Below, one piece after another: positions 1,177 to 46,154 of a stretch of 64,000 bases of DNA. A model generated the notes under the pieces. It was not told the origin of the DNA. It saw nothing but the letters and a program-made list of their open reading frames with translations, and searched no databases. This DNA is from Eledone cirrhosa. Lineage: Eukaryota. Where the stretch lies: assembly GCA_964016885.1 (NCBI GenBank), contig OZ024741.1:25358001-25422000 (forward strand), written 5' to 3'. Made by a program: the position numbers and the translations under genes. The first letter of the stretch is position 1, and every line of letters starts with the position of its first letter.

Positions 1177-1189
1177 ATATATATATATA

Positions 1190-1924: not shown

Positions 1925-2053
1925 CTTTTCCTTAGTCTTGCATTAAAGAGTGGTGCTTCATAGCGAGGATTGGTACCAATCAAGAGAACAAGGTCTGATT
2001 CCTCAACTCCTGCAATAGTTGTGTTGAGAAGATAGTTTGACCGAATGTCAGTG
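1925..2053 (-). CDS. NDUFS1: NDUFS1 internal exon (129 bp): [42 protein letters not shown]
   Basis: Manual translation. GG from exon 46155 plus C forms the Gly codon, giving GAG-TDIRSNY directly. Acceptor ttctttttctAG|C, donor AG|GTaaga. Confidence 0.95.
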
Positions 2054-2111
2054 CTAGAAAAAGAAGCAATAAAGCAAGAATCAATTCATTAATTACATTA
2101 ACAGACAAGCT

Positions 2112-2380
2112 CATCATCATCAACATATCATCATTATTAATATTTTCATTATCATCATCATCATCATCAATAACATTTTTTTAATTCTTTCATGAGTTGG
2201 ATGGGTCACAACCAGGACCACCTCCCTCCTCTTATTGTGTCCCTTCAACACAACTGTGAGATTCAGTATTTTGAGATCAGCTCTCACTACTTCTAACCAG
2301 GTTTTCCTTGGTCTTCCTCTACTGCACCTTCCTTCCACTAACATCTCTCAGCCCTTCTTCACCCAACAATCATCATCCAA
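2112..2380 (-). mobile_element. RTE 3'-end relic with (GAT)n tail
   Basis: VEGRCSRGRPRKTWLEVVRADL motif followed by ATC microsatellite tracts. Confidence 0.75.
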
Positions 2381-2780
2381 AAGCATCACGTTTGTTAGAC
2401 ATATTCATCATCATATAAAACAGACATTAAATGATAATGATGATGATGAGGGTGGTGGGAATAATGTCCAACAACACAGTTCTTTAGTTATTAATTATTA
2501 CCAATTTTATATTTTTCATTCATCTGTGCCAAGCATAAGCCACATAGGATGTGGCTCATCATAAGGTGGGCCGCACTGCTATAAAATTCAAGGTAATTCA
2601 GAGATTAGGTGTGCCATTCAGAAAGCCAAACAGGCTGCAGTTTTCCCATAACTGGTCAATGTTAATGTGTGTTGTTTGTTAAAGAATGTGAAGTAACTCT
2701 TGTCCCCCTTCCTAACTAGGACACCAGTTTTTCTCTCAGATCATATTCCAAGCTCATCTGACATCTACTCATCATAATTA

Positions 2781-5700
2781 AATCAATTGAAACAGTATAT
2801 ACAGTTCAATATCAACTGAGACAGTATATAGAGTTCAATGATATCAACTGAGACAGTATATACAGTTCAATGATATCAACTGAGACACTATATAGAGTTC
2901 AATGATATCAACTGAGACAATATATAGAGATCAATGATATCAACGGAGACAGTATATAGAGTTCAATGATATCAACTGAGACAGTATATAGAGTTCAATG
3001 ATATCAACTGAGACAATATATAGAGTTCAATATCAACTGAGACAATATATACAGTTCAATGATATCAACTGAGACAGTATATAGAGTTCAATGATATCAA
3101 CTGAGACAGTATATAGAGTTCAATGATATCAACTGAGACAGTATATAGAGTTCAATATCAACTAAGACAGTATATAGAGTTCAATGATATCAACTGAGAC
3201 AGTATATAGAGTTCAATGATATCAACTGAGACAATATATAGAGTTCAATGATATAAACTGAGACAGTATATAGAGTTCAAACGAAATCAACTGAGACAAT
3301 ATATAGAGTTCAATGATATCAACTGAGACAATATATAGAGTTCAATGATATCAACTGAGACAGTATATACAGTTCAATGATATCAACTGAGACAGTATAT
3401 ACAGTTCAATGATATCAACTTAGACAGTATATACAGTTCAATGATATCAACTGAGACAGTATATAGAGTTCAATGATATCAACTGAGACAGTATATAGAG
3501 TTCAATGATATCAACTGACAGTATATACAGTTCAATGATATCAACTGAAACAGTGTATAGAGTTCAATGATATCAACTCAGACAGTATATAGAGTTCAAT
3601 GATATCAACTGAGACAGTATATACAGTTCAATGATATCAACTGAGACAATATATAGAGTTCAATGATATCAACTGAGACAGTATATAGAGTTCAATGATA
3701 TCAACTGAGACAGTATATAGAGTTCAATGATATCAACTGAGACAATATATAGAGTTTAATATCAACGGAGACAATATATACAGTTCAATGATATCAACTG
3801 AGACAGTATATAGAGTTCAATGATATCAAGTGAGACAGTATATACAGTTCAATGATATCAACTGAAACAGTATATAGAGTTCAATGATATCAACTGAGAC
3901 AGTATATAGAGTTCAATGATATCAACTGAGACAATATATAGAGTTCAATATCAACTGAGACAATATATACAGTTCAATGATATCAACTGAGAGAGTATAT
4001 GGAGTTCAATGATATCAACTGAGACAATATATAGAGTTCAATGATATCAACTGAGACAGTATATACAGTTCAATGACATCAACTGAGACAGTATATAGAG
4101 TTCAATGATATCAACTGAGACGGTATATACAGTTCAATGATATCAACTGAGACAGTATATAGAGTTCAATGATATCAACTGAGACAGTATATACAGTTCA
4201 ATGATATCAACTGAGACAGTATATAGAGTTCAATGATAGCAACTGAGGCAGTATATAGAGTTCAATGATATCAACTGAGACAATATATACAGTTCAATGA
4301 TATCAACTGAGACAGTATATAGAGTTCAATGATATCAACTGAGACAATATATAGAGTTCAATGATATCAACTGAGGCAGTATATAGAGTTCAATGATATA
4401 AATTGAGACAATATATAGAGTTCAATGATATCAACTGAGACAGTATATACAGTTCAATGATATCAACTGAGACAGTATATAGAGTTCAATATCAACTGAG
4501 ACAGTATATACAGTTCAATGATATCAACTGAGACAGTATATAGAGTTCAATGAAATCAACTGAGATAATATATAGAGTTCAATGATATCAACTGAGACAA
4601 TATATAGAGTTCAATGATATCAACTGAGACAGTATATACAGTTCAATGATATCAACTGAGACAGTATATAGAGTTCAATGATATCAACTGAGACAGTATA
4701 TACAGTTCAATGATATCAACTGAGACAGTATATACAGTTCAATGATATCAACTGAGACAGTATATAGAGTTCAATGATATCAACTGAGACAGTATATACA
4801 GTTCAATGATATCAACTGAGACAGTATATAGAGTTCAATATTATCAACTGAGACAATATATACAGTTCAATGATATCAACTGAGACAGTATATAGAGTTC
4901 AATGATATCAACTGAGACAGTATATACAGTTCAATGATATCAACTGAGACAGTATATACAGTTCAATGATATCAACTGAGACAATATATAGAGTTCAATG
5001 ATATCAACTGAGGCAGTATATACAGTTCAATGATATCAACTGAGACGATATATAGAGTTCAATGATATCAACTGAGATAGTATATACAGTTCAATGATAT
5101 CAACTGAGACAATATATAGAGTTCAATGATATCAACTGAGACAGTATATACAGTTCAATGATATCAACTGAGACAGTATATAGAGTTCAATGATATCAAC
5201 TGAGACAATATATAGAGTTCAATGATATCAACTGAGACAATATATAGAGTTCAATGATATCAACTGAGACAATATATAGAGTTCAATGATATCAACTGAG
5301 ACAGTATATACAGTTCAATGATATCAACTGAGACAATATATAGTTCAATGATATCGATTGAGACAGTATATACAGTTGAATGATATCAACTGAGACAGTA
5401 TATACAGTTCAATGATATCAACTGAGACAGTATATAGAGTTCAATGATATCAACTGAGACAGTAAATAGAGTTCAATGATATCAACTGAGACAGTATATA
5501 GAGTTCAATGATATCAACTGAGACAGTATATACAGTTCAATGATATCAACTGAAACAGTATATAGAGTTTAATGATATCAACTGAGACAGTATATAGAGT
5601 TCAATGATATCAACTGAGACAGTATATACAGTTCAATGATATCAACTGAGACAATATATAGAGTTCAATATCAACTGAGACAATATATAGAGTTCAATGA

Positions 5701-8700
5701 TATCAACTGAGACAGTATATACAGTTCAATGATATCATCTGAAACAATATATAGAGTTCAATGATATCAACTGAGACAGTATATACGGTTCAATGATATC
5801 AACTGAGACAGTATATACAGTTCAATGATATCAACTGAGACAGTATATAGAGTTCAATGATATCAACTGAGACAATATATACAGTTCAATGATATCAACT
5901 GAGACAGTATATAGAGTTCAATGATATCAACTGAAACAGTATATACAGTTCAATGATATCAACTGAGACAGTATATACAGTTCAATGATATCAACTGAGA
6001 CAATATATAGAGTTCAATGATATCAACTGAGGCAGTATATAGAGTTCAATGATATCAACTGAGACAATATATAGAGTTCAATGATATCAACTGAGACAAT
6101 ATATAGAGTTCAATGATATCAACTGAGATAGTATATACAGTTCAATGATATCAACTGAGACAATATATACAGTTCAATGATATCAACTGAGACAGTATAT
6201 AGAGTTCAATGATATCAACTGAGACAATATATAGAGTTCAATGATATCAACTGAGACAATATATAGAGTTCAATGATATCAACTGAGACAATATATAGAG
6301 TTCAATGATATCAACTGAGACAGTATATACAGTTCAATGATATCATCTGAAACAGTATATAGAGTTCAATGATATCAATTGAGACAGTATATACGGTTCA
6401 ATGATATCAACTGAGACAGTATATACAGTTCAATGATATCAACTGAGACAGTATATAGAGTTCAATGATATCAACTGAGACAGTATATAGAGTTCAATGA
6501 TATCAACTGAGACAATATATAGAGTTCAATGATATCAACTGAGACAATATATAGAGTTCAATGATATCAACTGAGACAGTATATAGAGTTCAATAATATC
6601 AACTGAGACAATATATAGAGTTCAATGATATCAACTGAGACAATATATAGAGTTCAATGATATCAACTGAGACAGTATATAGAGTTCAATGATATCAACT
6701 GAGACAATATATAGAGTTCAATATCAATTAAGACAGTATATAGAGTTCAATAATATCAACTGAGACAGTATGTACAGTTCAATGATATCAACTGAGACAG
6801 TATATAGAGTTCAATGATATCAACTGAGACAATATATAGAGTTCAATGATATAAACTGAGACAGTATATAGAGTTCAAACGAAATCAACTGAGACAATAT
6901 ATAGAGTTCAATGATATCAACTGAGACAATATATAGAGTTCAATGATATCAACTGAGACAGTATATACAGTTCAATGATATCAACTGAGACAGTATATAC
7001 AGTTCAATGATATCAACTGAGACAGTATATACAGTTCAATGATATCAACTGAGACAGTATATAGAGTTCAATGATATCAACTGAGACAGTATATACGGTT
7101 CAATGATATCAACTGAGACAGTATATACAGTTCAATGATATCAACTGAGACAGTATATAGAGTTCAATGATATCAACTGAGACAATATATACAGTTCAAT
7201 GATATCAACTGAGACAGTATATAGAGTTCAATATCAACTAAGACAGTATATAGAGTTCAATGATATCAACTGAGACAGTATATAGAGTTCAATGATATCA
7301 ACTGAGACAATATATAGAGTTCAATGATATAAACTGAGACAGTATATAGAGTTCAAACGAAATCAACTGAGACAATATATAGAGTTCAATGATATCAACT
7401 GAGACAATATATAGAGTTCAATGATATCAACTGAGACAGTATATACAGTTCAATGATATCAACTGAGACAGTATATAGAGTTCAATGATATCAACTGAGA
7501 CAGTATATAGAGTTCAATGATATCAACTGACAGTATATACAGTTCAATGATATCAACTGAAACAGTGTATAGAGTTCAATGATATCAACTCAGACAGTAT
7601 ATAGAGTTCAATGATATCAACTGAGACAGTATATACAGTTCAATGATATCAACTGAGACAATATATAGAGTTCAATGATATCAACTGAGACAGTATATAG
7701 AGTTCAATGATATCAACTGAGACAGTATATAGAGTTCAATGATATCAACTGAGACAATATATAGAGTTTAATATCAACGGAGACAATATATACAGTTCAA
7801 TGATATCAACTGAGACAGTATATAGAGTTCAATGATATCAAGTGAGACAGTATATACAGTTCAATGATATCAACTGAAACAGTATATAGAGTTCAATGAT
7901 ATCAACTGAGACAGTATATAGAGTTCAATGATATCAACTGAGACAATATATAGAGTTCAATATCAACTGAGACAATATATACAGTTCAATGATATCAACT
8001 GAGAGAGTATATGGAGTTCAATGATATCAACTGAGACAGTATATAGAGTTCAATGATATCAACTGAGACAGTATATACAGTTCAATGATATCAACTGAGA
8101 CAGTATATAGAGTTCAATGATAGCAACTGAGGCAGTATATAGAGTTCAATGATATCAACTGAGACAATATATACAGTTCAATGATATCAACTGAGACAGT
8201 ATATAGAGTTCAATGATATCAACTGAGACAATATATAGAGTTCAATGATATCAACTGAGACAGTATATAGAGTTCAATGATATCAACTGAGACAGTATAT
8301 AGAGTTCAATGATATCAACTGAGACAATATATAGAGTTTAATATCAACGGAGACAATATATACAGTTCAATGATATCAACTGAGACAGTATATAGAGTTC
8401 AATGATATCAAGTGAGACAGTATATACAGTTCAATGATATCAACTGAAACAGTATATAGAGTTCAATGATATCAACTGAGACAGTATATAGAGTTCAATG
8501 ATATCAACTGAGACAATATATAGAGTTCAATATCAACTGAGACAATATATACAGTTCAATGATATCAACTGAGAGAGTATATGGAGTTCAATGATATCAA
8601 CTGAGACAGTATATAGAGTTCAATGATATCAACTGAGACAGTATATACAGTTCAATGATATCAACTGAGACAGTATATAGAGTTCAATGATAGCAACTGA

Positions 8701-11700
8701 GGCAGTATATAGAGTTCAATGATATCAACTGAGACAATATATACAGTTCAATGATATCAACTGAGACAGTATATAGAGTTCAATGATATCAACTGAGACA
8801 ATATATAGAGTTCAATGATATCAACTGAGGCAGTATATAGAGTTCAATGATATAAATTGAGACAATATATAGAGTTCAATGATATCAACTGAGACAGTAT
8901 ATACAGTTCAATGATATCAACTGAGACAGTATATAGAGTTCAATATCAACTGAGACAGTATATACAGTTGAATGATATCAACTGAGACAGTATATAGAGT
9001 TCAATGAAATCAACTGAGATAATATATAGAGTTCAATGATATCAACTGAGACAATATATAGAGTTCAATGATATCAACTGAGACAGTATATACAGTTCAA
9101 TGATATCAACTGAGACAGTATATAGAGTTCAATGATATCAACTGAGACAGTATATACAGTTCAATGATATCAACTGAGACAGTATATACAGTTCAATGAT
9201 ATCAACTGAGACAGTATATAGAGTTCAATGATATCAACTGAGACAGTATATACAGTTCAATGATATCAACTGAGACAGTATATAGAGTTCAATATTATCA
9301 ACTGAGACAATATAAACAGTTCAATGATATCAACTGAGACAGTATATAGAGTTCAATGATATCAACTGAGACAGTATATACAGTTCAATGATATCAACTG
9401 AGACAGTATATACAGTTCAATGATATCAACTGAGACAATATATAGAGTTCAATGATATCAACTGAGGCAGTATATACAGTTCAATGATATCAACTGAGAC
9501 GATATATAGAGTTCAATGATATCAACTGAGATAGTATATACAGTTCAATGATATCAACTGAGACAATATATAGAGTTCAATGATATCAACTGAGACAGTA
9601 TATACAGTTCAATGATATCAACTGAGACAGTATATAGAGTTCAATGATATCAACTGGGACAATATATAGAGTTCAATGATATCAACTGAGACAATATATA
9701 GAGTTCAATGATATCAACTGAGACAATATATAGAGTTCAATGATATCAACTGAGACAGTATATACAGTTCAATGATATCAACTGAGACAATATATAGTTC
9801 AATGATATCGATTGAGACAGTATATACAGTTGAATGATATCAACTGAGACAGTATATACAGTTCAATGATATCAACTGAGACAGTATATAGAGTTCAATG
9901 ATATCAACTGAGACAGTAAATAGAGTTCAATGATATCAACTGAGACAGTATATAGAGTTCAATGATATCAACTGAGACAGTATATACAGTTCAATGATAT
10001 CAACTGAAACAGTATATAGAGTTTAATGATATCAACTGAGACAGTATATAGAGTTCAATGATATCAACTGAGACAGTATATACAGTTCAATGATATCAAC
10101 TGAGACAATATATAGAGTTCAATATCAACTGAGACAATATATAGAGTTCAATGATATCAACTGAGACAGTATATACAGTTCAATGATATCATCTGAAACA
10201 ATATATAGAGTTCAATGATATCAACTGAGACAGTATATACGGTTCAATGATATCAACTGAGACAGTATATACAGTTCAATGATATCAACTGAGACAGTAT
10301 ATAGAGTTCAATGATATCAACTGAGACAATATATACAGTTCAATGATATCAACTGAGACAGTATATAGAGTTCAATGATATCAACTGAGACAGTATATAC
10401 AGTTCAATGATATCAACTGAGACAGTATATACAGTTCAATGATATCAACTGAGACAATATATAGAGTTCAATGATATCAACTGAGGCAGTATATAGAGTT
10501 CAATGATATCAACTGAGACAATATATAGAGTTCAATGATATCAACTGAGACAATATATAGAGTTCAATGATATCAACTGAGATAGTATATACAGTTCAAT
10601 GATATCAACTGAGACAATATATACAGTTCAATGATATCAACTGAGACAGTATATAGAGTTCAATGATATCAACTGAGACAATATATAGAGTTCAATGATA
10701 TCAACTGAGACAATATATAGAGTTCAATGATATCAACTGAGACAATATATAGAGTTCAATGATATCAACTGAGACAGTATATACAGTTCAATGATATCAT
10801 CTGAAACAGTATATAGAGTTCAATGATATCAATTGAGACAGTATATACGGTTCAATGATATCAACTGAGACAGTATATACAGTTCAATGATATCAACTGA
10901 GACAGTATATAGAGTTCAATGATATCAACTGAGACAGTATATAGAGTTCAATGATATCAACTGAGACAGTATATAGAGTTCAATGATACCAACTGAGACA
11001 ATATATAGAGTTCAATGATATCAACTGAGACAATATATAGAGTTCAATGATATCAACTGAGACAGTATATAGAGTTCAATAATATCAACTGAGACAATAT
11101 ATAGAGTTCAATGATATCAACTGAGACAATATATAGAGTTCAATTATATCAACTGAGACAGTATATAGAGTTCAATGATATCAACTGAGACAATATATAG
11201 AGTTCAATATCAATTAAGACAGTATATAGAGTTCAATAATATCAACTGAGACAGTATATACAGTTCAATGATATCAACTGAGACAGTATATAGAGTTCAA
11301 TGATATCAACTGAGACAATATATAGAGTTCAATGATATAAACTGAGACAGTATATAGAGTTCAAACGAAATCAACTGAGACAATATATAGAGTTCAATGA
11401 TATCAACTGAGACAATATATAGAGTTCAATGATATCAACTGAGACAGTATATACAGTTCAATGATATCAACTGAGACAGTATATACAGTTCAATGATATC
11501 AACTGAGACAGTATATACAGTTCAATGATATCAACTGAGACAGTATATAGAGTTCAATGATATCAACTGAGACAGTATATACGGTTCAATGATATCAACT
11601 GAGACAGTATATACAGTTCAATGATATCAACTGAGACAGTATATAGAGTTCAATGATATCAACTGAGACAATATATACAGTTCAATGATATCAACTGAGA

Positions 11701-14700
11701 CAGTATATAGAGTTCAATATCAACTAAGACAGTATATAGAGTTCAATGATATCAACTGAGACAGTATATAGAGTTCAATGATATCAACTGAGACAATATA
11801 TAGAGTTCAATGATATAAACTGAGACAGTATATAGAGTTCAAACGAAATCAACTGAGACAATATATAGAGTTCAATGATATCAACTGAGACAATATATAG
11901 AGTTCAATGATATCAACTGAGACAGTATATACAGTTCAATGATATCAACTGAGACAGTATATAGAGTTCAATGATATCAACTGAGACAGTATATAGAGTT
12001 CAATGATATCAACTGACAGTATATACAGTTCAATGATATCAACTGAAACAGTGTATAGAGTTCAATGATATCAACTCAGACAGTATATAGAGTTCAATGA
12101 TATCAACTGAGACAGTATATACAGTTCAATGATATCAACTGAGACAATATATAGAGTTCAATGATATCAACTGAGACAGTATATAGAGTTCAATGATATC
12201 AACTGAGACAGTATATAGAGTTCAATGATATCAACTGAGACAATATATAGAGTTTAATATCAACGGAGACAATATATACAGTTCAATGATATCAACTGAG
12301 ACAGTATATAGAGTTCAATGATATCAAGTGAGACAGTATATACAGTTCAATGATATCAACTGAAACAGTATATAGAGTTCAATGATATCAACTGAGACAG
12401 TATATAGAGTTCAATGATATCAACTGAGACAATATATAGAGTTCAATATCAACTGAGACAATATATACAGTTCAATGATATCAACTGAGAGAGTATATGG
12501 AGTTCAATGATATCAACTGAGACAATATATAGAGTTCAATGATATCAACTGAGACAGTATATACAGTTCAATGACATCAACTGAGACAGTATATAGAGTT
12601 CAATGATATCAACTGAGACGGTATATACAGTTCAATGATATCAACTGAGACAGTATATAGAGTTCAATGATATCAACTGAGACAGTATATACAGTTCAAT
12701 GATATCAACTGAGACAGTATATAGAGTTCAATGATAGCAACTGAGGCAGTATATAGAGTTCAATGATATCAACTGAGACAATATATACAGTTCAATGATA
12801 TCAACTGAGACAGTATATAGAGTTCAATGATATCAACTGAGACAATATATAGAGTTCAATGATATCAACTGAGGCAGTATATAGAGTTCAATGATATAAA
12901 TTGAGACAATATATAGAGTTCAATGATATCAACTGAGACAGTATATACAGTTCAATGATATCAACTGAGACAGTATATAGAGTTCAATATCAACTGAGAC
13001 AGTATATACAGTTGAATGATATCAACTGAGACAGTATATAGAGTTCAATGAAATCAACTGAGATAATATATAGAGTTCAATGATATCAACTGAGACAATA
13101 TATAGAGTTCAATGATATCAACTGAGACAGTATATACAGTTCAATGATATCAACTGAGACAGTATATAGAGTTCAATGATATCAACTGAGACAGTATATA
13201 CAGTTCAATGATATCAACTGAGACAGTATATACAGTTCAATGATATCAACTGAGACAGTATATAGAGTTCAATGATATCAACTGAGACAGTATATACAGT
13301 TCAATGATATCAACTGAGACAGTATATAGAGTTCAATATTATCAACTGAGACAATATAAACAGTTCAATGATATCAACTGAGACAGTATATAGAGTTCAA
13401 TGATATCAACTGAGACAGTATATACAGTTCAATGATATCAACTGAGACAGTATATACAGTTCAATGATATCAACTGAGACAATATATAGAGTTCAATGAT
13501 ATCAACTGAGGCAGTATATACAGTTCAATGATATCAACTGAGACGATATATAGAGTTCAATGATATCAACTGAGATAGTATATACAGTTCAATGATATCA
13601 ACTGAGACAATATATAGAGTTCAATGATATCAACTGAGACAGTATATACAGTTCAATGATATCAACTGAGACAGTATATAGAGTTCAATGATATCAACTG
13701 GGACAATATATAGAGTTCAATGATATCAACTGAGACAATATATAGAGTTCAATGATATCAACTGAGACAATATATAGAGTTCAATGATATCAACTGAGAC
13801 AGTATATACAGTTCAATGATATCAACTGAGACAATATATAGTTCAATGATATCGATTGAGACAGTATATACAGTTGAATGATATCAACTGAGACAGTATA
13901 TACAGTTCAATGATATCAACTGAGACAGTATATAGAGTTCAATGATATCAACTGAGACAGTAAATAGAGTTCAATGATATCAACTGAGACAGTATATAGA
14001 GTTCAATGATATCAACTGAGACAGTATATACAGTTCAATGATATCAACTGAAACAGTATATAGAGTTTAATGATATCAACTGAGACAGTATATAGAGTTC
14101 AATGATATCAACTGAGACAGTATATACAGTTCAATGATATCAACTGAGACAATATATAGAGTTCAATATCAACTGAGACAATATATAGAGTTCAATGATA
14201 TCAACTGAGACAGTATATACAGTTCAATGATATCATCTGAAACAATATATAGAGTTCAATGATATCAACTGAGACAGTATATACGGTTCAATGATATCAA
14301 CTGAGACAGTATATACAGTTCAATGATATCAACTGAGACAGTATATAGAGTTCAATGATATCAACTGAGACAATATATACAGTTCAATGATATCAACTGA
14401 GACAGTATATAGAGTTCAATGATATCAACTGAAACAGTATATACAGTTCAATGATATCAACTGAGACAGTATATACAGTTCAATGATATCAACTGAGACA
14501 ATATATAGAGTTCAATGATATCAACTGAGGCAGTATATAGAGTTCAATGATATCAACTGAGACAATATATAGAGTTCAATGATATCAACTGAGACAATAT
14601 ATAGAGTTCAATGATATCAACTGAGATAGTATATACAGTTCAATGATATCAACTGAGACAATATATACAGTTCAATGATATCAACTGAGACAGTATATAG

Positions 14701-29053: not shown

Positions 29054-29343
29054 CATCATCACCGTTTTACGTCCGTTCTTCCACGCTAGCATGGGTTAGA
29101 CGGGTTGTCCTGTTGTGGGCAGTGTCTGGTCGGCTGACCCTGCCTTGCTCATACAGGAACTGATCTGGCTTGATTTCTACAGCTGGATGCCCTTCCTAAC
29201 ACCAACCTCATTTACAGTGAGTGCTGGGTGCTTTTTCGTGGCGCCTACACGTCCACTTTACAGTGTGGGCTGGGTGCTTTTTTGCCGTGGCACCTCCACG
29301 ACCACCTTGCGGTGGGGGGGGGGGGGCATATTGTTTATATGCT

Positions 29344-32445: not shown

Positions 32446-32688
32446 ATTTCATCTATTGATTCAGAGTTGCTCGTGTATTCCCAGCTCATCCATCCATAAC
32501 GGTGGGAAAATTGAGGGCTAGAAGAACAGTGGTGGTGGGGTAATGGCAGGGTGTGTTGGGATGCGCCAGAGGAGGAGAGAGTTAGTTAGGCAGGTAGTAG
32601 CAGCAGCAGTGGAAATGGCATGCTAGGTTTGATTGGTCGAATAGACTATGGTGGTGTGTGGGGGTGGGGGGAGGGGGAAATTGTGAGG

Positions 32689-34108
32689 TAGGAACTGAGG
32701 GTCGCATGGTAAATATCCAAGTTAATACTACATCAGTAAATTTAACAATAATAACGTCATGAAAAACTACTAAGAGAAACCCTCGAAAATTTATCGTTAA
32801 TACAGCAGGGAAAATTTAACGCTAATACAGCAGGGAACATCATAATATTAACGACAATATGTAGGCTAAAATACCTTCGTAGATTAGATGGATGGCTGGA
32901 AAAATTGGAATCAGCTCTAGTGATACATTTTAGCAGAGAAGAATGGGAAAGTGTCTTATCTCTTCAATATTTTCAGATTGAATGAATTAGGTTAAAGACA
33001 GGGTAGTAAGCCTTAAAGAAGTGCATAGAGAGGGGGGGGGTAGGAACTGAGGGTCGCATGGTAAATAACTGAGAGAGATACAATAGGATTAGAATACCGC
33101 ATGGTAAATATCCAAGTTAATACTACATCAGTAAAATTAACAATAATAATAACATCATGAAAAACTACTAAGAGAAACCCTCGAAAATTTATCGCTAATA
33201 CAGCAGGGAAAATTTAACGCTAATACAGCAGGGAACATCATAATATTAACGACAATATGTAGGCTAAAATACCTTCGTAGATTAGATGGATGGCTGGAAA
33301 AATTGGAATCAGCTCTAGTGATACATTTTAGCAGAGAAGAATGGGAAAGTGTCTTATCTCTTCAATATTTTCAGATTGAATGAATTAGGTTAAAGACAGG
33401 GTAGTAAGCCTTAAAGAAGTGCATAGAGAGGGGGGGGTAGGAACTGAGGGTCGCATGGTAAATAACTGAGAGAGATACAATAGGATTAGAATACCGCATG
33501 GTAAATATCCAAGTTAATAAGTTAATACTACATCAGTAAAATTAACAATAATAATAACATCATGAAAAACTACTAAGAGAAACCCTCGAAAATTTATCGC
33601 TAATACAGCAGGGAAAATTTAACGCTAATACAGCAGGGAACATCATAATATTAACGACAATATGTAGGCTAAAATACCTTCGTAGATTAGATGGATGGCT
33701 GGAAAAATTGGAATCAGCTCTAGTGATACATTTTAGCAGAGAAGAATGGGAAAGTGTCTTATCTCTTCAATATTTTCAGATTGAATGAATTAGGTTAAAG
33801 ACAGGGTAGTAAGCCTTAAAGAAGTGCATAGAGAGGGGGGGGGTAGGAACTGAGGGTCGCATGGTAAATAACTGAGAGAGATACAATAGGATTAGAATAC
33901 CGCATGGTAAATATCCAAGTTAATAAGTTAATACTACATCAGTAAAATTAACAATAATAATAACGTCATGAAAAACTACTAAGAGAAACCCTCGAAAATT
34001 TATCGCTAATACAGCAGGGAAAATTTAACGCTAATACAGCAGGGAACATCATAATATTAACGACAATATGTAGGCTAAAATACCTTCGTAGATTAGATGG
34101 ATGGCTGG
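32689..34108 (-). repeat. ~3.6 tandem 350-406-bp monomers in the LINE 5' UTR
   Basis: The marker TAGGAACTGAGGGTCGCATGGTAAATA recurs at 32689, 33041, 33438 and 33844; the last copy is truncated at the satellite junction. Confidence 0.93.
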
Positions 34109-37100
34109 AATATATAGCGTTCAATATCAACTGAGACAATATATAGCGTTCAATATCAACTGAGACAATATATACAGTTCAATGATATTAACTGAGACAG
34201 TATATAGAGTTCAATGATATCAACTGAGGCAATATATAGAGTTCAATGATATCAACTTAGACAATATATAGAGTTCAATATCAACTGAGACAGTATATAG
34301 AGTTCAATGATATCAACTGAGACAATATATAGAGTTCAATGACATCAACTGAGACAATATATAGAGTTCAATATCAACTGAGACAATATATACAGTTCAA
34401 TGATATCAACTGAGACAGTATATAGAGTTCAATGATATCAACTGAGACAATATATAGAGTTCAATGATATCAACTGAGACAATATATAGAGTTCAATATC
34501 AACTGAGACAGTATATAGAGTTCAATGATATCAACTGAGACAATATATAGAGTTCAATGACATCAACTGAGACAATATATAGAGTTCAATATCAACTGAG
34601 ACAATATATACAGTTCAATGATATCAACTGAGACAGTATATAGAGTTCAATGATATCAACTGAGACAGTATATAGAGTTCAATGATATCAACTGAGACAG
34701 TATATAGAGTTCAATGATATCAACTGAGACAATATATACAGTTCAATGATATCAACTGAGACAGTATATAGAGTTCAATGATATCAACTGAGACAATATA
34801 TAGAGTTCAATGATATCAACTGAGACAATATATAGAGTTGAATGATATCAACTGAGACAATATATAGAGTTCAATGATATCAACTGAGACCTTATATAGA
34901 GTTCAATGATATCAACTGAGACAATATATAGAGTTCAATGATATCAACTGAGACAGTATATACAGTTCAATGATATCAACTGAGACAATATATAGAGTTC
35001 AATATCAACTGAGACAATATATACAGTTCAATGATATCAACTGAGACAGTATATAGAGTTCACTGATATCAACTGAGACAATATATAGAGTTCAATGATA
35101 TCAACTGAGACAATATATAGAGTTCAATATCAACTGAGACAGTATATAGAGTTCAATGATATCAACTGAGACAATATATAGTGTTCAATATCAACTGAGA
35201 CAGTATATACAGTTCAATGGTATCAACTGAGACAGTATATACAGTTCAATATCAACTGAGACAATATATAGCGTTCAATATCAACTGAGACAATATATAG
35301 CGTTCAATATCAACTGAGACAATATATACAGTTCAATGATATTAACTGAGACAGTATATAGAGCTCAATGATATCAACTGAGACAATATATAGAGTTCAA
35401 TGATATCAACTGAGACAATATATAGAGTTCAATATCAACTGAGACAGTATATAGAGTTCAATGATATCAACTGAGACAATATATAGAGTTCAATGATATC
35501 AATTGAGACAGTATATAGAGTTCAATGATATCAACTGAGACAATATTTAGAGTTCAATGATATCAACTGAGACAGTATATACAGTTCAACGATATCAACT
35601 GAGACAATATATAGAGTTCAATGATATCAACTGAGACAATATATAGAGTTCGATGATATCAACTGAGACAGTATATAGAGTTCAATGATATCAACTGAGA
35701 CTATATATACAGTTCAATGATATCAACTGAGACAGTATATACAGTTGAATGATATCAACTGAGACAATATATAGAGTTCAATATCAACTGAGACAATATA
35801 TACAGTTCAATGATATCAACTGAGACAGTATATAGAGTTCACTGATATCAACTGAGACAATATATAGAGTTCAATGATATCAACTGAGACAATATATAGA
35901 GTTCAATATCAACTGAGACAGTATATAGAGTTCAATGATATCAACTGAGACAATATATAGAGTTCCTTCTCAACTGAGACAGTATATACAGTTCAATGAT
36001 ATCAACTGAGACAGTATATACAGTTCAATATCAACTGAGACAATATATAGCGTTCAATATCAACTGAGACAATATATACAGTTCAATGATATTAACTGAG
36101 ACAGTATATAGAGTTCAATGATATCAACTGAGACAATATATAGAGTTCAATGATATCAACTGAGACAATATATAGAGTTCAATATCAACTGAGACAGTAT
36201 ATAGAGTTCAATGATATCAACTGAGACAATATATAGAGTTCAATGACATCAACTGAGACAATATATAGAGTTCAATATCAACTGAGACAATATATACAGT
36301 TCAATGATATCAACTGAGACAGTATATAGAGTTCAATGATATCAACTGAGACAGTATATAGAGTTCAATGATATCAACTGAGACAGTATATAGAGTTCAA
36401 TGATATCAACTGAGACAATATATACAGTTCAATGATATCAACTGAGACAGTATATAGAGTTCAATGATATCAACTGAGACAGTATATAGAGTTCAATGAT
36501 ATCAACTGAGACAATATATAGAGTTCAATGATATCAACTGAGACAATATATAGAGTTCAATGATATCAACTGAGACAATATATAGAGTTCAATGATATCA
36601 ACTGAGACCTTATATAGAGTTCAATGATATCAACTGAGACAATATATAGAGTTCAATGATATCAACTGAGACAGTATATACAGTTCAATGATATCAACTG
36701 AGACAATATATAGAGTTCAATATCAACTGAGACAATATATACAGTTCAATGATATCAACTGAGACAGTATATAGAGTTCACTGATATCAACTGAGACAAT
36801 ATATAGAGTTCAATGATATCAACTGAGACAATATATAGAGTTCAATATCAACTGAGACAGTATATAGAGTTCAATATCAACTGAGACAATATATAGAGTT
36901 CAATATCAACTGAGACAGTATATACAGTTCAATGATATCAACTGAGACAGTATATACAGTTCAATATCAACTGAGACAATATATAGCGTTCAATATCAAC
37001 TGAGACAATATATAGCGTTCAATATCAACTGAGACAATATATACAGTTCAATGATATTAACTGAGACAGTATATAGAGTTCAATGATATCAACTGAGACA

Positions 37101-40100
37101 ATATATAGAGTTCAATGATATCAACTGAGACAATATATAGAGTTCAATATCAACTGAGACAGTATATAGAGTTCAATGATATCAACTGAGACAATATATA
37201 GAGTTCAATGATATCAATTGAGACAGTATATAGAGTTCAATGATATAAACTGAGACAATATATAGAGTTCAATGATATCAACTGAGACAGTATATACAGT
37301 TCAACGATATCAACTGAGACAATATATAGAGTTCAATGATATCAACTGAGACAATATATAGAGTTCAATGATATCAACTGAGACAGTATATAGAGTTCAA
37401 TGACATCAACTGAGACAATATATAGAGTTCAATATCAACTGAGACAATATATACAGTTCAATGATATCAACTGAGACAGTATATAGATTTCAATGATATC
37501 AACTGAGACAGTATATAGAGATCAATGACATCAACTGAGACAATATATAGAGTTCAATATCAACTGAGACAATATATACAGTTCAATGATATCAACTGAG
37601 ACAGTATATAGAGTTCAATGATATCAACTGAGACAGTATATAGAGTTCAATGATATCAACTGAGACAGTATATAGAGTTCAATGATATCAACTGAGACAA
37701 TATATACAGTTCAATGATATCAACTGAGACAGTATATACAGTTCAATGATATCAACTGAGACAATATATAGAGTTCAATGATATCAACTGAGACAGTATA
37801 TAGAGTTCAATGATATCAACTGAGACAGTATATAGAGTTCAATGATATCAACTGAGACAGTATATAGAGTTCAATGATATCAACTGAGACAGTATATACA
37901 GTTCAATGATATCAACTGAGACAATATATAGAGTTCAATATCAACTGAGACAATATATACAGTTCAATGATATCAACTGAGACAGTATATAGAGTTCACT
38001 GATATCAACTGAGACAATATATAGAGTTCAATGATATCAACTGAGACAATATATAGAGTTCAATATCAACTGAGACAGTATATAGAGTTCAATGATATCA
38101 ACTGAGACAATATATAGAGTTCAATATCAACTGAGACAGTATATACAGTTCAATGGTATCAACTGAGACAGTATATACAGTTCAATATCAACTGAGACAA
38201 TATATAGCGTTCAATATCAACTGAGACAATATATAGCGTTCAATATCAACTGAGACAATATATACAGTTCAATGATATTAACTGAGACAGTATATAGAGT
38301 TCAATGATATCAACTGAGACAATATATAGAGTTCAATGATATCAACTGAGACAATATATAGAGTTCAATATCAACTGAGACAGTATATAGAGTTCAATGA
38401 TATCAACTGAGACAATATATAGAGTTCAATGATATCAATTGAGACAGCATATAGAGTTCAATGATATCAACTGAGACAATATATAGAGTTCAATGATATC
38501 AACTGAGACAGTATATACAGTTCAACGATATCAACTGAGACAATATATAGAGTTCAATATCAACTGAGACAATATATAGAGTTCAATGATATCAACTGAG
38601 ACAGTATATAGAGTTCAATGACATCAACTGAGACAATATATAGAGTTCAATATCAACTGAGACAATATATACAGTTCAATGATATCAACTGAGACAGTAT
38701 ATAGAGTTCAATGATATCAACTGAGACTATATATACAGTTCAATGATATCAACTGAGACAGTATATACAGTTGAATGATATCAACTGAGACAATATATAG
38801 AGTTCAATATCAACTGAGACAATATATACAGTTCAATGATATCAACTGAGACAGTATATAGAGTTCACTGATATCAACTGAGACAATATATAGAGTTCAA
38901 TGATATCAACTGAGACAATATATAGAGTTCAATATCAACTGAGACAGTATATAGAGTTCAATGATATCAACTGAGACAATATATAGAGTTCAATATCAAC
39001 TGAGACAGTATATACAGTTCAATGATATCAACTGAGACAGTATATAGAGTTCAATGATATCAACTGAGACTATATATACAGTTCAATGATATCAACTGAG
39101 ACAGTATATACAGTTGAATGATATCAACTGAGACAATATATAGAGTTCAATATCAACTGAGACAATATATACAGTTCAATGATATCAACTGAGACAGTAT
39201 ATAGAGTTCACTGATATCAACTGAGACAATATATAGAGTTCAATGATATCAACTGAGACAATATATAGAGTTCAATATCAACTGAGACAGTATATAGAGT
39301 TCAATGATATCAACTGAGACAATATATAGAGTTCAATATCAACTGAGACAGTATATACAGTTCAATGATATCAACTGAGACAGTATATACAGTTCAATAT
39401 CAACTGAGACAATATATAGCGTTCAATATCAACTGAGACAATATATACAGTTCAATGATATTAACTGAGACAGTAACAGTATATAGAGTTCAATGATATC
39501 AACTGAGACAATATATAGAGTTCAATGATATCAACTGAGACAATATATAGAGTTCAATGATATCAATTGAGACAGTATATAAAGTTCAATGATATCAACT
39601 GAGACAATATATAGAGTTCAATGATATCAACTGAGACAGTATATACAGTTCAATGATATCAACTGAGACAGTATATAGAGTTCAATGATATCAACTGAGA
39701 CAGTATATAGAGATCAATGACATCAACTGAGACAATATATAGAGTTCAATATCAACTGAGACAATATATACAGTTCAATGATATCAACTGAGACAGTATA
39801 TAGAGTTCAATGATATCAACTGAGACAGTATATAGAGATCAATGACATCAACTGAGACAATATATAGAGTTCAATATCAACTGAGACAATATATACAGTT
39901 CAATGATATCAACTGAGACAGTATATAGAGTTCAATGATATCAACTGAGACTATATATACAGTTCAATGATATCAACTGAGACAGTATATACAGTTGAAT
40001 GATATCAACTGAGACAATATATAGAGTTCAATATCAACTGAGACAATATATACAGTTCAATGATATCAACTGAGACAGTATATAGAGTTCACTGATATCA

Positions 40101-43100
40101 ACTGAGACAATATATAGAGTTCAATGATATCAACTGAGACAATATATAGAGTTCAATATCAACTGAGACAGTATATAGAGTTCAATGATATCAACTGAGA
40201 CAATATATAGAGTTCAATATCAACTGAGACAGTATATACAGTTCAATGATATCAACTGAGACAGTATATACAGTTCAATATCAACTGAGACAATATATAG
40301 CGTTCAATATCAACTGAGACAATATATACAGTTCAATGATATTAACTGAGACAGTATATAGAGTTCAATGATATCAACTGAGACAATATATACAGTTCAA
40401 TGATATCAACTGAGACAATATATAGAGTTCAATATCAACTGAGACAGTATATAGAGTTCAATGATATCAACTGAGACAATATATAGAGTTCAATGACATC
40501 AACTGAGACAATATATAGAGTTCAATATCAACTGAGACAATATATACAGTTCAATGATATCAACTGAGACAGTATATAGAGTTCAATGATATCAACTGAG
40601 ACAGTATATAGAGTTCAATGATATCAACTGAGACAGTATATAGAGTTCAATGATATCAACTGAGACAATATATACAGTTCAATGATATCAACTGAGACAG
40701 TATATAGAGTTCAATGATATCAACTGAGACAGTATATAGAGTTCAATGATATCAACTGAGACAATATATAGAGTTCAATGATATCAACTGAGACAATATA
40801 TAGAGTTCAATGATATCAACTGAGACCTTATATAGAGTTCAATGATATCAACTGAGACAATATATAGAGTTCAATGATATCAACTGAGACAGTATATACA
40901 GTTCAATGATATCAACTGAGACAATATATAGAGTTCAATATCAACTGAGACAATATATACAGTTCAATGATATCAACTGAGACAGTATATAGAGTTCACT
41001 GATATCAACTGAGACAATATATAGAGTTCAATGATATCAACTGAGACAATATATAGAGTTCAATATCAACTGAGACAGTATATAGAGTTCAATGATATCA
41101 ACTGAGACAATATATAGAGTTCAATATCAACTGAGACAGTATATACAATTCAATGGTATCAACTGAGACAGTATATACAGTTCAATATCAACTGAGACAA
41201 TATATAGCGTTCAATATCAACTGAGACAATATATAGCGTTCAATATCAACTGAGACAATATATACAGTTCAATGATATTAACTGAGACAGTATATAGAGT
41301 TCAATGATATCAACTGAGACAATATATAGAGTTCAATGATATCAACTGAGACAATATATAGAGTTCAATATCAACTGAGACAGTATATAGAGTTCAATGA
41401 TATCAACTGAGACAATATATAGAGTTCAATGATATCAATTGAGACAGCATATAGAGTTCAATGATATCAACTGAGACAATATATAGAGTTCAATGATATC
41501 AACTGAGACAGTATATACAGTTCAACGATATCAACTGAGACAATATATAGAGTTCAATATCAACTGAGACAATATATAGAGTTCAATGATATCAACTGAG
41601 ACAGTATATAGAGTTCAATGACATCAACTGAGACAATATATAGAGTTCAATATCAACTGAGACAATATATACAGTTCAATGATATCAACTGAGACAGTAT
41701 ATAGAGTTCAATGATATCAACTGAGACTATATATACAGTTCAATGATATCAACTGAGACAGTATATACAGTTGAATGATATCAACTGAGACAATATATAG
41801 AGTTCAATATCAACTGAGACAATATATACAGTTCAATGATATCAACTGAGACAGTATATAGAGTTCACTGATATCAACTGAGACAATATATAGAGTTCAA
41901 TGATATCAACTGAGACAATATATAGAGTTCAATATCAACTGAGACAGTATATAGAGTTCAATGATATCAACTGAGACAATATATAGAGTTCAATATCAAC
42001 TGAGACAGTATATACAGTTCAATGATATCAACTGAGACAGTATATAGAGTTCAATGATATCAACTGAGACTATATATACAGTTCAATGATATCAACTGAG
42101 ACAGTATATACAGTTGAATGATATCAACTGAGACAATATATAGAGTTCAATATCAACTGAGACAATATATACAGTTCAATGATATCAACTGAGACAGTAT
42201 ATAGAGTTCACTGATATCAACTGAGACAATATATAGAGTTCAATGATATCAACTGAGACAATATATAGAGTTCAATATCAACTGAGACAGTATATAGAGT
42301 TCAATGATATCAACTGAGACAATATATAGAGTTCAATATCAACTGAGACAGTATATACAGTTCAATGATATCAACTGAGACAGTATATACAGTTCAATAT
42401 CAACTGAGACAATATATAGCGTTCAATATCAACTGAGACAATATATACAGTTCAATGATATTAACTGAGACAGTAACAGTATATAGAGTTCAATGATATC
42501 AACTGAGACAATATATAGAGTTCAATGATATCAACTGAGACAATATATAGAGTTCAATGATATCAATTGAGACAGTATATAAAGTTCAATGATATCAACT
42601 GAGACAATATATAGAGTTCAATGATATCAACTGAGACAGTATATACAGTTCAATGATATCAACTGAGACAGTATATAGAGTTCAATGATATCAACTGAGA
42701 CAGTATATAGAGATCAATGACATCAACTGAGACAATATATAGAGTTCAATATCAACTGAGACAATATATACAGTTCAATGATATCAACTGAGACAGTATA
42801 TAGAGTTCAATGATATCAACTGAGACAGTATATAGAGATCAATGACATCAACTGAGACAATATATAGAGTTCAATATCAACTGAGACAATATATACAGTT
42901 CAATGATATCAACTGAGACAGTATATAGAGTTCAATGATATCAACTGAGACTATATATACAGTTCAATGATATCAACTGAGACAGTATATACAGTTGAAT
43001 GATATCAACTGAGACAATATATAGAGTTCAATATCAACTGAGACAATATATACAGTTCAATGATATCAACTGAGACAGTATATAGAGTTCACTGATATCA

Positions 43101-45570
43101 ACTGAGACAATATATAGAGTTCAATGATATCAACTGAGACAATATATAGAGTTCAATATCAACTGAGACAGTATATAGAGTTCAATGATATCAACTGAGA
43201 CAATATATAGAGTTCAATATCAACTGAGACAGTATATACAGTTCAATGATATCAACTGAGACAGTATATACAGTTCAATATCAACTGAGACAATATATAG
43301 CGTTCAATATCAACTGAGACAATATATACAGTTCAATGATATTAACTGAGACAGTATATAGAGTTCAATGATATCAACTGAGACAATATATACAGTTCAA
43401 TGATATCAACTGAGACAATATATAGAGTTCAATATCAACTGAGACAGTATATAGAGTTCAATGATATCAACTGAGACAATATATAGAGTTCAATGACATC
43501 AACTGAGACAATATATAGAGTTCAATATCAACTGAGACAATATATACAGTTCAATGATATCAACTGAGACAGTATATAGAGTTCAATGATATCAACTGAG
43601 ACAGTATATAGAGTTCAATGATATCAACTGAGACAGTATATAGAGTTCAATGATATCAACTGAGACAATATATACAGTTCAATGATATCAACTGAGACAG
43701 TATATAGAGTTCAATGATATCAACTGAGACAGTATATAGAGTTCAATGATATCAACTGAGACAATATATAGAGTTCAATGATATCAACTGAGACAATATA
43801 TAGAGTTCAATGATATCAACTGAGACCTTATATAGAGTTCAATGATATCAACTGAGACAATATATAGAGTTCAATGATATCAACTGAGACAGTATATACA
43901 GTTCAATGATATCAACTGAGACAATATATAGAGTTCAATATCAACTGAGACAATATATACAGTTCAATGATATCAACTGAGACAGTATATAGAGTTCACT
44001 GATATCAACTGAGACAATATATAGAGTTCAATGATATCAACTGAGACAATATATAGAGTTCAATATCAACTGAGACAGTATATAGAGTTCAATGATATCA
44101 ACTGAGACAATATATAGAGTTCAATATCAACTGAGACAGTATATACAGTTCAATGATATCAACTGAGACAGTATATACAGTTCAATATCAACTGAGACAA
44201 TATATAGCGTTCAATATCAACTGAGACAATATATAGCGTTCAATATCAACTGAGACAATATATACAGTTCAATGATATTAACTGAGACAGTATATAGAGT
44301 TCAATGATATCAACTGAGACAATATATAGAGTTCAATGATATCAACTGAGACAATATATAGAGTTCAATATCAACTGAGACAGTATATAGAGTTCAATGA
44401 TATCAACTGAGACAATATATAGAGTTCAATGATATCAATTGAGACAGTATATAGAGTTCAATGATATCAACTGAGACAATATATAGAGTTCAATGATATC
44501 AACTGAGACAGTATATACAGTTCAACGATATCAACTGAGACAATATATAGAGTTCAATGATATCAACTGAGACAATATATAGAGTTCAATGATATCAACT
44601 GAGACAGTATATAGAGTTCAATGACATCAACTGAGACAATATATAGAGTTCAATATCAACTGAGACAATATATACAGTTCAATGATATCAACTGAGACAG
44701 TATATAGAGTTCAATGATATCAACTGAGACAGTATATAGAGATCAATGACATCAACTGAGACAATATATAGAGTTCAATATCAACTGAGACAATATATAC
44801 AGTTCAATGATATCAACTGAGACAGTATATAGAGTTCAATGATATCAACTGAGACAGTATATAGAGTTCAATGATATCAACTGAGACAGTATATAGAGTT
44901 CAATGATATCAACTGAGACAATATATACAGTTCAATGATATCAACTGAGACAGTATATACAGTTCAATGATATCAACTGAGACAATATATAGAGTTCAAT
45001 GATATCAACTGAGACAGTATATAGAGTTCAATGATATCAACTGAGACAGTATATAGAGTTCAATGATATCAACTGAGACAATATATAGAGTTCAATGATA
45101 TCAACTGAGACAATATATAGAGTTCAATGATATCAACTGAGACAGTATATAGAGTTCAATATCAACTGAGACAGTATATAGAGTTCAATGATATCAACTG
45201 AGACAGTATATAGAGTTCAATGATATCAACTGAGACAATATATAGAGTTCAATGATATCAACTGAGACAATATATAGAGTTCAATATCAACAGAGACAGT
45301 ATATAGATTTCAATGATATCAACTGAGACAGTATATAGAGTTCAATGATATCAACTGAGACAGTATATAGAGTTCAATGATATCAACTGAGACAATATAT
45401 AGAGTTCAATGATATCAACTGAGACAATATATAGAGTTCAATGATATCAACTGAGACAATATATAGAGTTCAATGATATCAACCGAGACAGTATATAGAG
45501 TTCAATGATATCAACTGACACAGTATATACAGTTCAATGATATCAACTGAGACAGTATATAGAGTTCAAT
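34109..45570. repeat. 32-bp satellite, right arm (richer in 29-bp, GCGTT and TTCACTG variants)
   Basis: The same monomer resumes in register after the LINE and ends at ...AGAGTTCAAT|taactgc. Confidence 0.98.
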
Positions 45571-45712
45571 TAACTGCAATGGATTTCAACTAAAACCCTG
45601 CAAACTTCATTTTGTAAATTTGGATTGTTTAGTGATTCTTTAAAATATAACTGATTCAGATAGAAAGTTTCATTCAGTGCTCATAGCTTTTCCAGAGTCT
45701 CTTCAATTGGAC

Positions 45713-45935
45713 TACTCTTGGGTCCCAAATAATAGGGAGGAGGAATTTTTCTAGGTTGTCTCTATTGATATTTTTGAAAACCAGAATTAGTCGTTTAGTT
45801 TACATACTGAGACCCCCAACCCATCCTATTTATTTTATAAAATATGGGGTTTCTAGTGATGTACTTTTTTTGTCATGTATAATGTTTTTAATTTCTAAAG
45901 AAAATTGTCACAGGAATGCTACCACTTAAAATAAA
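45713..45935 (+). mobile_element. DNA transposon/MITE terminal arm (TACTCTTGGGTCCCAAATA...)
   Basis: Diverged reverse-complement copy at 50101-50342; begins with TA. Confidence 0.6.
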
Positions 45936-46154
45936 ATTTCACTGGAGATAGATTAGCATATGCCCGGCAGGGTGGTAATTTGAATATATTGGGGAGCAAT
46001 TTTGCTAACTTTTAAATTATATCTTTTTAGCACCAAACATTTTTTAAAGTTAGACAGGAAGGGCACATCAATTTTGTTTAGATGTTGTGGTGGAGAGGTA
46101 AAGTATTACTGAATTCCTGGGAAGAAATGCAATGAGAAAACAAATAAAACTTAC

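What the first reader, a model, noticed from the sequence alone, without database searches (positions are those of the whole stretch)
2054..46154. Satellite-filled 44-kb intron in an essential housekeeping gene
Seen: two consecutive in-frame NDUFS1 exons are separated by ~38 kb of 32-bp satellite (roughly 1,200 monomers by length) plus a 5-kb LINE, while the neighbouring introns are 0.1-1.3 kb. A second satellite of at least 12 kb fills another intron. Known: satellite-driven intron gigantism is best described for Drosophila Y fertility genes, which need dedicated RNA-binding factors. Inference: Pol II must read through more than 50 kb of satellite per transcript of a ubiquitous complex I gene, which implies a non-silenced satellite, abundant satellite RNA and possibly special splicing or elongation support.
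Basis: partly seen in the sequence, partly recalled or inferred. Interest (0 to 1): 0.75.

Follow-up and report, generated by a model that had tools for sequence, protein, structure and literature searches.

The report
Octopod NDUFS1 introns swollen by repeats
In an octopus-group genome, the single intact gene for a core respiratory-chain protein (NDUFS1) is stretched to 268,000 bases because five of its introns each hold a different block of tandem repeats, and transcript-like data join the exons across the 44,000-base intron, so the repeats likely grew in place in a repeat-rich chromosome region and are likely tolerated and spliced out rather than functional.

Summary
Observation confirmed and larger than reported. 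The 44,101-bp GT-AG intron (2054-46154) is intron 11 of a single-copy, intact, 19-exon NDUFS1 (723 aa, 642/723 identical to Octopus bimaculoides). It holds 1,190 monomers of a 32-bp repeat found nowhere else in the assembly, plus a 5-kb LINE with an open ORF. A spliced 2,754-nt contig from a public run joins 46155 to 2053 without mismatch. The gene spans 268 kb: introns of 135, 44, 27, 25 and 11 kb each carry a different array (~226-231 kb in all). It lies in a ~9-Mb array-rich domain (11 of 16 probes mostly array); 21 blind-picked housekeeping loci elsewhere are compact (0 of 77 gaps over 40 kb). The scan noted the same pattern before at seven other genes of this genome; I confirmed one (LHPP) in part. 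It resembles chicken 'sequence stuttering' at 10-50 times the size more than Drosophila Y-loop gigantism. Abundant satellite RNA and special splicing support are not shown; all five long introns have GTRAGT donors and the 32-bp array has no sense-strand decoy donor or AATAAA. No read spanning the array could be tested.

The parts
2054..46154 (-). NDUFS1 intron 11, 44,101 bp, GT-AG, phase 2
   Evidence: contig record 877-1022 = 46300-46155, record 1022-1151 = 2054-1925
1925..2053 (-). NDUFS1 exon 12 (129 bp)
46155..46300 (-). NDUFS1 exon 11 (146 bp)
2782..29054 (.). 32-bp array, left arm, 825 monomers
34110..45570 (.). 32-bp array, right arm, 365 monomers; contains an exact 2,999-bp tandem duplication (38149 / 41149)
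29055..34109 (-). Full-length LINE inserted into a monomer, same sense as the gene: 1,033-aa ORF 32445-29344 (endonuclease, RT, PHD finger), 3-4 tandem ~400-bp units at its 5' end, short ATG-repeat tail, 7-bp target-site duplication. 'RTE clade' is recalled, not tested by tree
47522..47671 (-). NDUFS1 exon 10
48309..48408 (-). NDUFS1 exon 9
49003..49188 (-). NDUFS1 exon 8
50436..50513 (-). NDUFS1 exon 7
50650..50714 (-). NDUFS1 exon 6
51142..51223 (-). NDUFS1 exon 5
51917..64000 (.). 52-bp (34+18 subunit) array in intron 4; continues to 78236 beyond the window (intron 4 = 27,111 bp)
1..1924 (-). Part of intron 12 (2,508 bp) with a decayed LINE piece; exons 13-19 follow beyond the window start, down to window-equivalent -48227, across arrays of 10, 23 and 1.8 kb. 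Exons 1-4 lie beyond the window end, up to 220160; intron 2 (135,525 bp) holds a 127-kb 49-bp array

Best explanation
This is an intact, single-copy, spliced NDUFS1 gene whose introns have been lengthened by unrelated minisatellite arrays that likely grew in place, as a by-product of lying in a multi-megabase array-rich chromosome domain, and that are likely tolerated rather than used. Steps: (1, shown) 19 exons, 18 GT-AG introns, open 723-aa frame over 268 kb; seven introns carry arrays with different units (48, 49+40, 52, 32, ~34-40, 22/47, 44 bp). (2, inferred) A short local duplication seeds each array; the 48-bp unit of intron 1 matches the 3' tail of the LINE family seen in the window. 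(3, inferred from the pattern) Arrays grow by duplicating multi-monomer blocks (unequal exchange or conversion): exact internal copies of 3.0, 1.8, 1.3 and 1.15 kb and a gradient of the 29-bp variant along the array. (4, shown) LINEs then land in the arrays. (5, inferred) Selection keeps exons and splice flanks out of the arrays (585 and 728 bp of non-array flank at intron 11) and likely lets only harmless expansions persist: introns with strong 5' splice sites, units that carry no strong donor or AATAAA on the transcribed strand. (6, inferred) Pol II reads through ~230 kb of repeat per transcript and ordinary exon definition with co-transcriptional splicing removes it; no dedicated factor is needed to explain the data.
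For: Gene model and 642/723 identity. One genomic match. Splice junction across intron 11 in a 2,754-nt contig, 0 mismatches, loose end matching exon 11; its record offsets fit the model and imply it starts in exon 2, i.e. also crosses the 135-kb intron (arithmetic; not seen directly). 32-mer: 245 exact matches in the genome, all 245 in the window; depth 0 in a related organism whose intron 9 region is ~95% identical. Different unrelated units: among 25 array samples only the two 49-bp arrays and two within-array pairs matched. Domain: 11 of 16 10-kb probes between 20.0 and 28.5 Mb of C2 are >=60% array, 0 of 4 flanking probes, against 3 of 20 along the chromosome; arrays of 103 kb and ~375 kb lie outside the gene. 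LHPP at the far end of C2 is built alike. GTRAGT donors in 5 of 5 introns over 10 kb against 4 of 13 others (Fisher one-sided p=0.015, post hoc). Transcribed strand of the 32-bp array: 0 donor-like, 1 acceptor-like site, 0 AATAAA in 37.7 kb, against 37, 108 and 13 in 15.2 kb of small introns; the 49-bp array has 2,124 AATAAA on the untranscribed strand and 96 on the transcribed one.
Against: No read spanning any array was available, so lengths rest on the assembly; the exact 2,999-bp duplicate could be an assembly copy. The filter idea is weak statistically: with about eight units, finding none with a consensus donor or AATAAA is expected fairly often by chance; rank correlation of U1 match with intron length is not significant (rho 0.37, p=0.13) nor is the pyrimidine tract (p=0.57); the 22/47-bp array has 627 acceptor-like sites and the 49-bp array 50 donor-like sites and 96 AATAAA in sense. 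The 49-bp unit is not private: an inverted array with the same consensus lies ~240 kb away, so at least one array was seeded from elsewhere. Neutrality and chromatin state are untested.
Confidence: 0.7

Rival explanations
1. The gene lies in (peri)centromeric or fusion-scar heterochromatin and works like Drosophila heterochromatic genes: expressed within H3K9me chromatin and possibly dependent on it.
For: A ~9-Mb domain dominated by arrays inside a 416-Mb, probably fused chromosome (fusion inferred from size); essential expressed heterochromatic genes with repeat-filled introns exist in flies (PMC2211541, passages).
Against: No single dominant centromeric satellite: nearly every probe has a different unit; fly heterochromatic introns are described as TE-like sequence, these are pure tandem arrays; compact gene islands persist between arrays. 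Not exclusive of the best explanation.
Confidence: 0.13
2. The arrays are real but their lengths are inflated or scrambled by assembly; the true intron is much shorter.
For: Arrays exceed typical accurate long-read length (recalled 15-25 kb); an exact 2,999-bp duplicate; an N gap exists ~540 kb away near the start of the far 49-bp array; no laid piece spans the array.
Against: No N in 464 kb; 113 monomer variants, a positional gradient and a unique LINE anchor mid-array; depth on the first monomers is 8,093-10,359 against 10.8 at single-copy flank, ~750-960-fold, near the 1,190 assembled (rough, the tool says depth is no copy number, and that run may be the assembly's source).
Confidence: 0.08
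3. Y-loop-like device: the array RNA is abundant, recruits dedicated RNA-binding factors, and intron length is used to time or limit complex I output.
For: Read-through of ~230 kb is unavoidable; such a programme exists for kl-3/kl-5 (PMC6508621, abstract and outline).
Against: Introns are 10-100 times shorter; units are unrelated between introns and absent from a close relative; the partner gene NDUFV1 is compact, 13 kb; array word depth in the spliced run is ~20 against 448 (weak evidence).
Confidence: 0.07

Closest known systems
Intron 'sequence stuttering' on chicken dot chromosomes (Hron et al. 2026, PMC12954441; read abstract, section 7 part 1, section 8 part 1, section 9)
   Same: Each intron holds its own locally expanded unit of tens of bases; blocks stop short of exons; coding sequence intact; concentrated in a chromosomal domain; intergenic DNA affected too; units differ between related species.
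   Different: Here arrays are 10-127 kb (their worked example is a 1.6-2.9-kb intron), 28-37% GC rather than GC-rich, on a 416-Mb chromosome full of LINEs/SINEs (dot euchromatin is described as devoid of interspersed repeats); no exon-derived unit found; length polymorphism untested.
Drosophila Y-loop intron gigantism, kl-3/kl-5 (PMC6508621 and PMC11207136; abstracts and outlines only)
   Same: Tandem repeat makes up most of the gene and must be transcribed through.
   Different: Megabase introns of simple satellite, >99% of the locus, spermatocyte-specific, ~90 h, dedicated RNA-binding proteins; here 11-135 kb, ~85% of the locus, 22-52-bp units, a housekeeping gene.
Drosophila heterochromatic genes such as light and concertina (PMC2211541; passages)
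   Same: Essential expressed genes with unique exons in repeat-filled introns.
   Different: Their introns are TE-like sequence; here pure private tandem arrays; chromatin here unknown.
NDUFS1 / NuoG / 75-kDa subunit of complex I
   Same: 642/723 identical to O. bimaculoides protein P0009; PDB and Pfam hits.
   Different: Protein ordinary; only the gene span (268 kb) is unusual.

Membership tests
NDUFS1 (complex I 75-kDa subunit) | Full-length, open orthologous coding sequence | tested here: met
   19 exons, 723 aa, 642/723 identity, all introns GT-AG; top named hits octopod NDUFS1
NDUFS1 (complex I 75-kDa subunit) | Expressed and spliced from this locus | tested here: met
   Spliced contig with 0 mismatches on 5 listed exons and 6 junctions; single genomic copy. 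Run type inferred from its splice joints; library not on record
Drosophila Y-loop intron gigantism | Megabase-sized introns | tested here: not met
   44.1 kb; largest 135.5 kb
Drosophila Y-loop intron gigantism | Simple satellite making up >99% of the locus | tested here: not met
   ~85% of 268 kb; units of 22-52 bp
Drosophila Y-loop intron gigantism | Abundant intronic satellite transcripts | tested here: inconclusive
   Summed depth ~20 vs 448 at the exon in contigs of one run of unknown library
Drosophila Y-loop intron gigantism | Dedicated RNA-binding factors; germline-restricted, days-long transcription | not testable with these tools
   No functional or tissue data
Avian intron sequence stuttering | Locally expanded motifs, different in each intron, confined by exons | tested here: met
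   (one exception: the 49-bp unit has a second array ~240 kb away)
Avian intron sequence stuttering | Extensive length variation within the species | not testable with these tools
   No long raw reads from several individuals were served
Avian intron sequence stuttering | Occasional exon-derived units | tested here: not met
   120-bp samples of 11 array stretches gave no exon hit against the array-masked 464 kb; only samples were tested
Avian intron sequence stuttering | GC-rich microchromosome euchromatin lacking interspersed repeats | tested here: not met
   Arrays 28-37% GC, contig 416 Mb, LINEs inside arrays
Classical multi-locus satellite family | Monomer shared by arrays at several loci | tested here: not met
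   32-mer: 245 of 245 exact genome matches lie in this intron; exact matches only, diverged copies elsewhere not excluded
Autonomous LINE (RTE-like; clade name recalled) | Single ORF with endonuclease and RT, target-site duplication, short tandem tail | tested here: met
   PF03372, PF00078, PF00628; junctions; no tree built

The most novel reading that the evidence does not exclude
Octopod chromosomes carry megabase domains in which any intron or spacer can spawn its own young minisatellite and grow it to 10-400 kb - an AT-rich, invertebrate form of intron stuttering 10-50 times the avian scale - and which introns of essential genes balloon is set by a simple RNA-processing filter (strong U1 site, no sense poly(A) signal). 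NDUFS1 would be a natural test of how far a constitutive gene can be stretched with pure tandem repeat without special machinery.
Probability: 0.3. Interest if true: 0.7.

Novelty: new variant of a known kind. Interest (0 to 1): 0.47.

Why it matters
It shows that ~230 kb of homogeneous tandem repeat can sit inside a single-copy respiratory gene that is correctly spliced, so long tandem arrays need not silence or break the gene around them. Because each array is private to its intron, reads, FISH probes and ChIP signal map to one locus, which makes elongation, splicing and chromatin on long repeats directly measurable - hard to do with shared satellites. It also points to an undescribed route of genome growth in octopods (no paper on it in five searches; many subscription papers are outside the library). 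The single locus is less remarkable than first thought because the scan has seen the same build at other genes of this genome.

Tried and rejected
Second NDUFS1 locus or retrocopy: not found (one search used a stricter first look, so it is a floor). Genome-wide long introns as the explanation: 21 multi-match housekeeping loci from four family searches gave 77 gaps, median 1,322 bp, 4 over 10 kb, 2 over 20 kb (both between repeated domain blocks, possibly two genes), 0 over 40 kb; single-match loci were dropped, one search scored 48 of 127 candidates, and only part of each gene is covered, so long introns outside the matched part would be missed. Decoy 3' splice site in every 32-bp monomer (…TCTCAG): scored far below the gene's own acceptors. 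Recursive-splice motif YAG|GTRAG: 0 on the transcribed strand of all arrays. Idea that the far 49-bp array is also intronic with the same orientation: upstream I found a heme-peroxidase-like gene (identified by eye from motifs, recalled) that appears to end before the array, so unresolved. No listed holder was on record as RNA; RAD-seq run X6 gave 0 depth on the array, uninformative for a reduced-representation library. Cephalopod genome papers searched for satellite/tandem repeat/intron passages gave nothing on intronic arrays (one search reports simple repeats 14.7% and mean intron 5.4 kb in O. minor); Chlamydomonas paper not relevant. Supplements were not read. No structure or complex prediction was needed.
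Full report
Setting. The window is G000:C2:25,358,001-25,422,000 of a 3.0-Gb genome; C2 is 416 Mb. The best named relatives of exon 8 are NDUFS1 of Octopus sinensis, Argonauta hians and O. bimaculoides, so the animal is an octopod. Coordinates outside 1-64000 below are window-equivalents on C2.

The observation. Composition is flat at ~30% GC from 3 to 45.5 kb except 29-34 kb. TRF gives one 32-bp array, 2782-45570, and a 52-bp array from ~51.9 kb. I counted 1,190 monomers, 113 variants, 1,010 of 32 bp and 156 of 29 bp. The interruption is a LINE, 29055-34109, minus strand, with a 1,033-aa ORF (endonuclease, RT, PHD), a 7-bp target-site duplication and the same monomer order on both sides, so it inserted into an existing array. 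Exon 11 (46300-46155) and exon 12 (2053-1925) join in frame across a 44,101-bp GT-AG intron.

The whole gene. Taking 200 kb on each side and mapping with O. bimaculoides P0009 gives 19 exons, 18 GT-AG introns, 723 aa, 642/723 identical, from ATG at 220160 to stop at -48227: 268,388 bp. Intron sizes: 5.1, 135.5, 0.9, 27.1, 0.4, 0.1, 1.2, 0.6, 0.6, 1.2, 44.1, 2.5, 11.4, 24.6, 0.9, 3.5, 3.2, 3.2 kb. Seven introns carry arrays, each with another unit; without them those introns would be 1.3-6.4 kb. Array total is 230,683 bp by mask, ~226 kb after removing a second LINE in intron 2. There is no N in the 464 kb.

Is it expressed from here? Exon 11 has one match in the genome and all 9 NuoG-family matches fall in this gene (a floor). 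Run X4 (library not on record; same study as the best DNA holder, other sample) has a 2,754-nt contig of depth 448 that joins exons 6-11 at their GT-AG boundaries and continues: record 877-1022 = 46300-46155, record 1022-1151 = 2054-1925, no mismatch, with loose ends that read exon 11 on one side and exon 13 on the other. Its offsets put its start in exon 2 and its end 702 nt past the stop, so it probably crosses the 135-kb intron too; that junction was not seen directly.

Is the array real? No spanning read could be tested. Indirect support: variant diversity, a gradient of 29-mers from 4-7% at the left to 20-27% at the right, a unique LINE in the middle, and DNA word depth of 8,093-10,359 on the first two monomers against 10.8 on the flank, ~750-960-fold against 1,190 assembled. 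The tool warns depth is no copy number and X1 may be the assembly's source. Against: an exact 2,999-bp duplicate could be an assembly copy. The 32-mer has 245 exact matches in the genome and 245 in the window: a private minisatellite, not a shared satellite family. Organism B, ~95% identical over 48278-48586, gives depth 0 on it (it also covered the unique flank poorly), so the array is likely young.

How unusual? Blind family searches (NDUFV1, aconitases, chaperonins, AAA ATPases) gave 21 loci and 77 gaps between matched exons: median 1.3 kb, 2 over 20 kb (ambiguous), none over 40 kb, against 4 of 18 over 20 kb in NDUFS1 (p=0.011; caveats under Tried and rejected). Three of 20 evenly spread 10-kb probes on C2 are wholly array, but 11 of 16 between 20.0 and 28.5 Mb are at least 60% array, almost each with a different unit, and 0 of 4 flanking probes. 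Arrays also lie outside the gene: 103 kb just downstream and ~375 kb beyond. So the cause is regional, not gene-specific. Earlier notes of this scan report the same build at VPS15, SRA1, LHPP, unc79, APLF, a PKD1-like and an SLC22 gene of this genome (unchecked AI notes). I checked LHPP: exons at C2:410.778 and 410.734 Mb with a 37-bp array between them and a 28-bp array beyond.

Mechanism. Shown: intact exons, spliced product, unrelated units, block duplications inside the array (2,999; 1,804; 1,266; 1,151 bp exact), later LINE insertions. Inferred: local seeding (the 48-bp unit matches the LINE 3' tail; the 49-bp unit was shared between two arrays), growth by unequal exchange or conversion, and a selective filter. 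For the filter: all 5 introns over 10 kb have GTRAGT donors against 4 of 13 others (p=0.015 one-sided, post hoc), though U1 match against length is not significant (p=0.13); the transcribed strand of the 32-bp array has 0 donor-like sites, 1 acceptor-like site and no AATAAA, and the 49-bp array carries its AATAAA on the untranscribed strand (2,124 against 96). With about eight units this is compatible with chance, and two arrays do carry many decoy sites. A 268-kb gene with 44-135-kb introns is within what vertebrate Pol II and spliceosomes handle routinely (recalled), so nothing here demands special factors. In X4 the array's summed depth is ~20 against 448 at the exon: no sign of abundant stable array RNA, but contigs of an unknown library cannot measure it.

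Comparison. It fails the defining size and purity features of Drosophila Y-loop gigantism (PMC6508621, PMC11207136; abstracts and outlines). It works most like chicken dot-chromosome sequence stuttering (PMC12954441; sections read; lead from note e1-10329506): private units per intron, intact exons, domain-wide, but far longer, AT-rich, amid transposons, with no exon-derived unit found and polymorphism untested, so I do not file it as a member. Searches for octopus or cephalopod intronic satellites or minisatellites found no such report (passages).

Verdict. The essential-gene angle and the private, mappable arrays give it moderate interest (0.47); the genome-level phenomenon deserves more than the single intron.

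Noticed in passing
window-equivalent 84769-212155 (L003-L010, L021-L025) and C2:24,825,749-~25,200,700: The 127-kb 49-bp array in intron 2 has an inverted twin of ~375 kb with the same consensus about 240 kb away; exons 3-19 lie between them, so recombination between the two would invert most of an essential gene away from its first exons (inference). Continuity of the far array rests on 9 probes plus 43 kb read whole.
   Followed up: partly
window 32700-34109: The LINE's 5' end consists of 3-4 tandem ~400-bp units 97-98% alike, recalling the tandem promoter monomers of rodent L1 (recalled); its ORF carries a PHD finger after the RT domain.
   Followed up: partly
window-equivalent ~99,100-104,200 (L004): A second LINE with a 1,133-codon open frame sits in the 49-bp array, 74% identical to the window's LINE, same orientation as the gene.
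   Followed up: partly
window-equivalent 215166-217805 (L026): The 48-bp array in intron 1 matches the 3' tail of the window's LINE (26 of 28 bases, window 29255-29282), in line with LINE tails seeding arrays.
   Followed up: partly
protein P0002 (O. sinensis record): The annotated O. sinensis NDUFS1 lacks exactly the stretch encoded by exon 11 and has intron-like filler in its place, hinting that the same region is hard to assemble there; cause not checked.
   Followed up: no
C2:24,750,000-24,815,000 (L102-L108): A heme-peroxidase-like gene (by recalled motifs) present as a near-identical inverted duplication, with a short N gap at ~24,820,200.
   Followed up: no
window-equivalent -154232 to -50873: A 103-kb 21/39-bp array begins 2.6 kb past the NDUFS1 stop codon.
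   Followed up: no
window 59-842: Decayed LINE 3' fragment on the + strand in intron 12, related to the full-length element.
   Followed up: no
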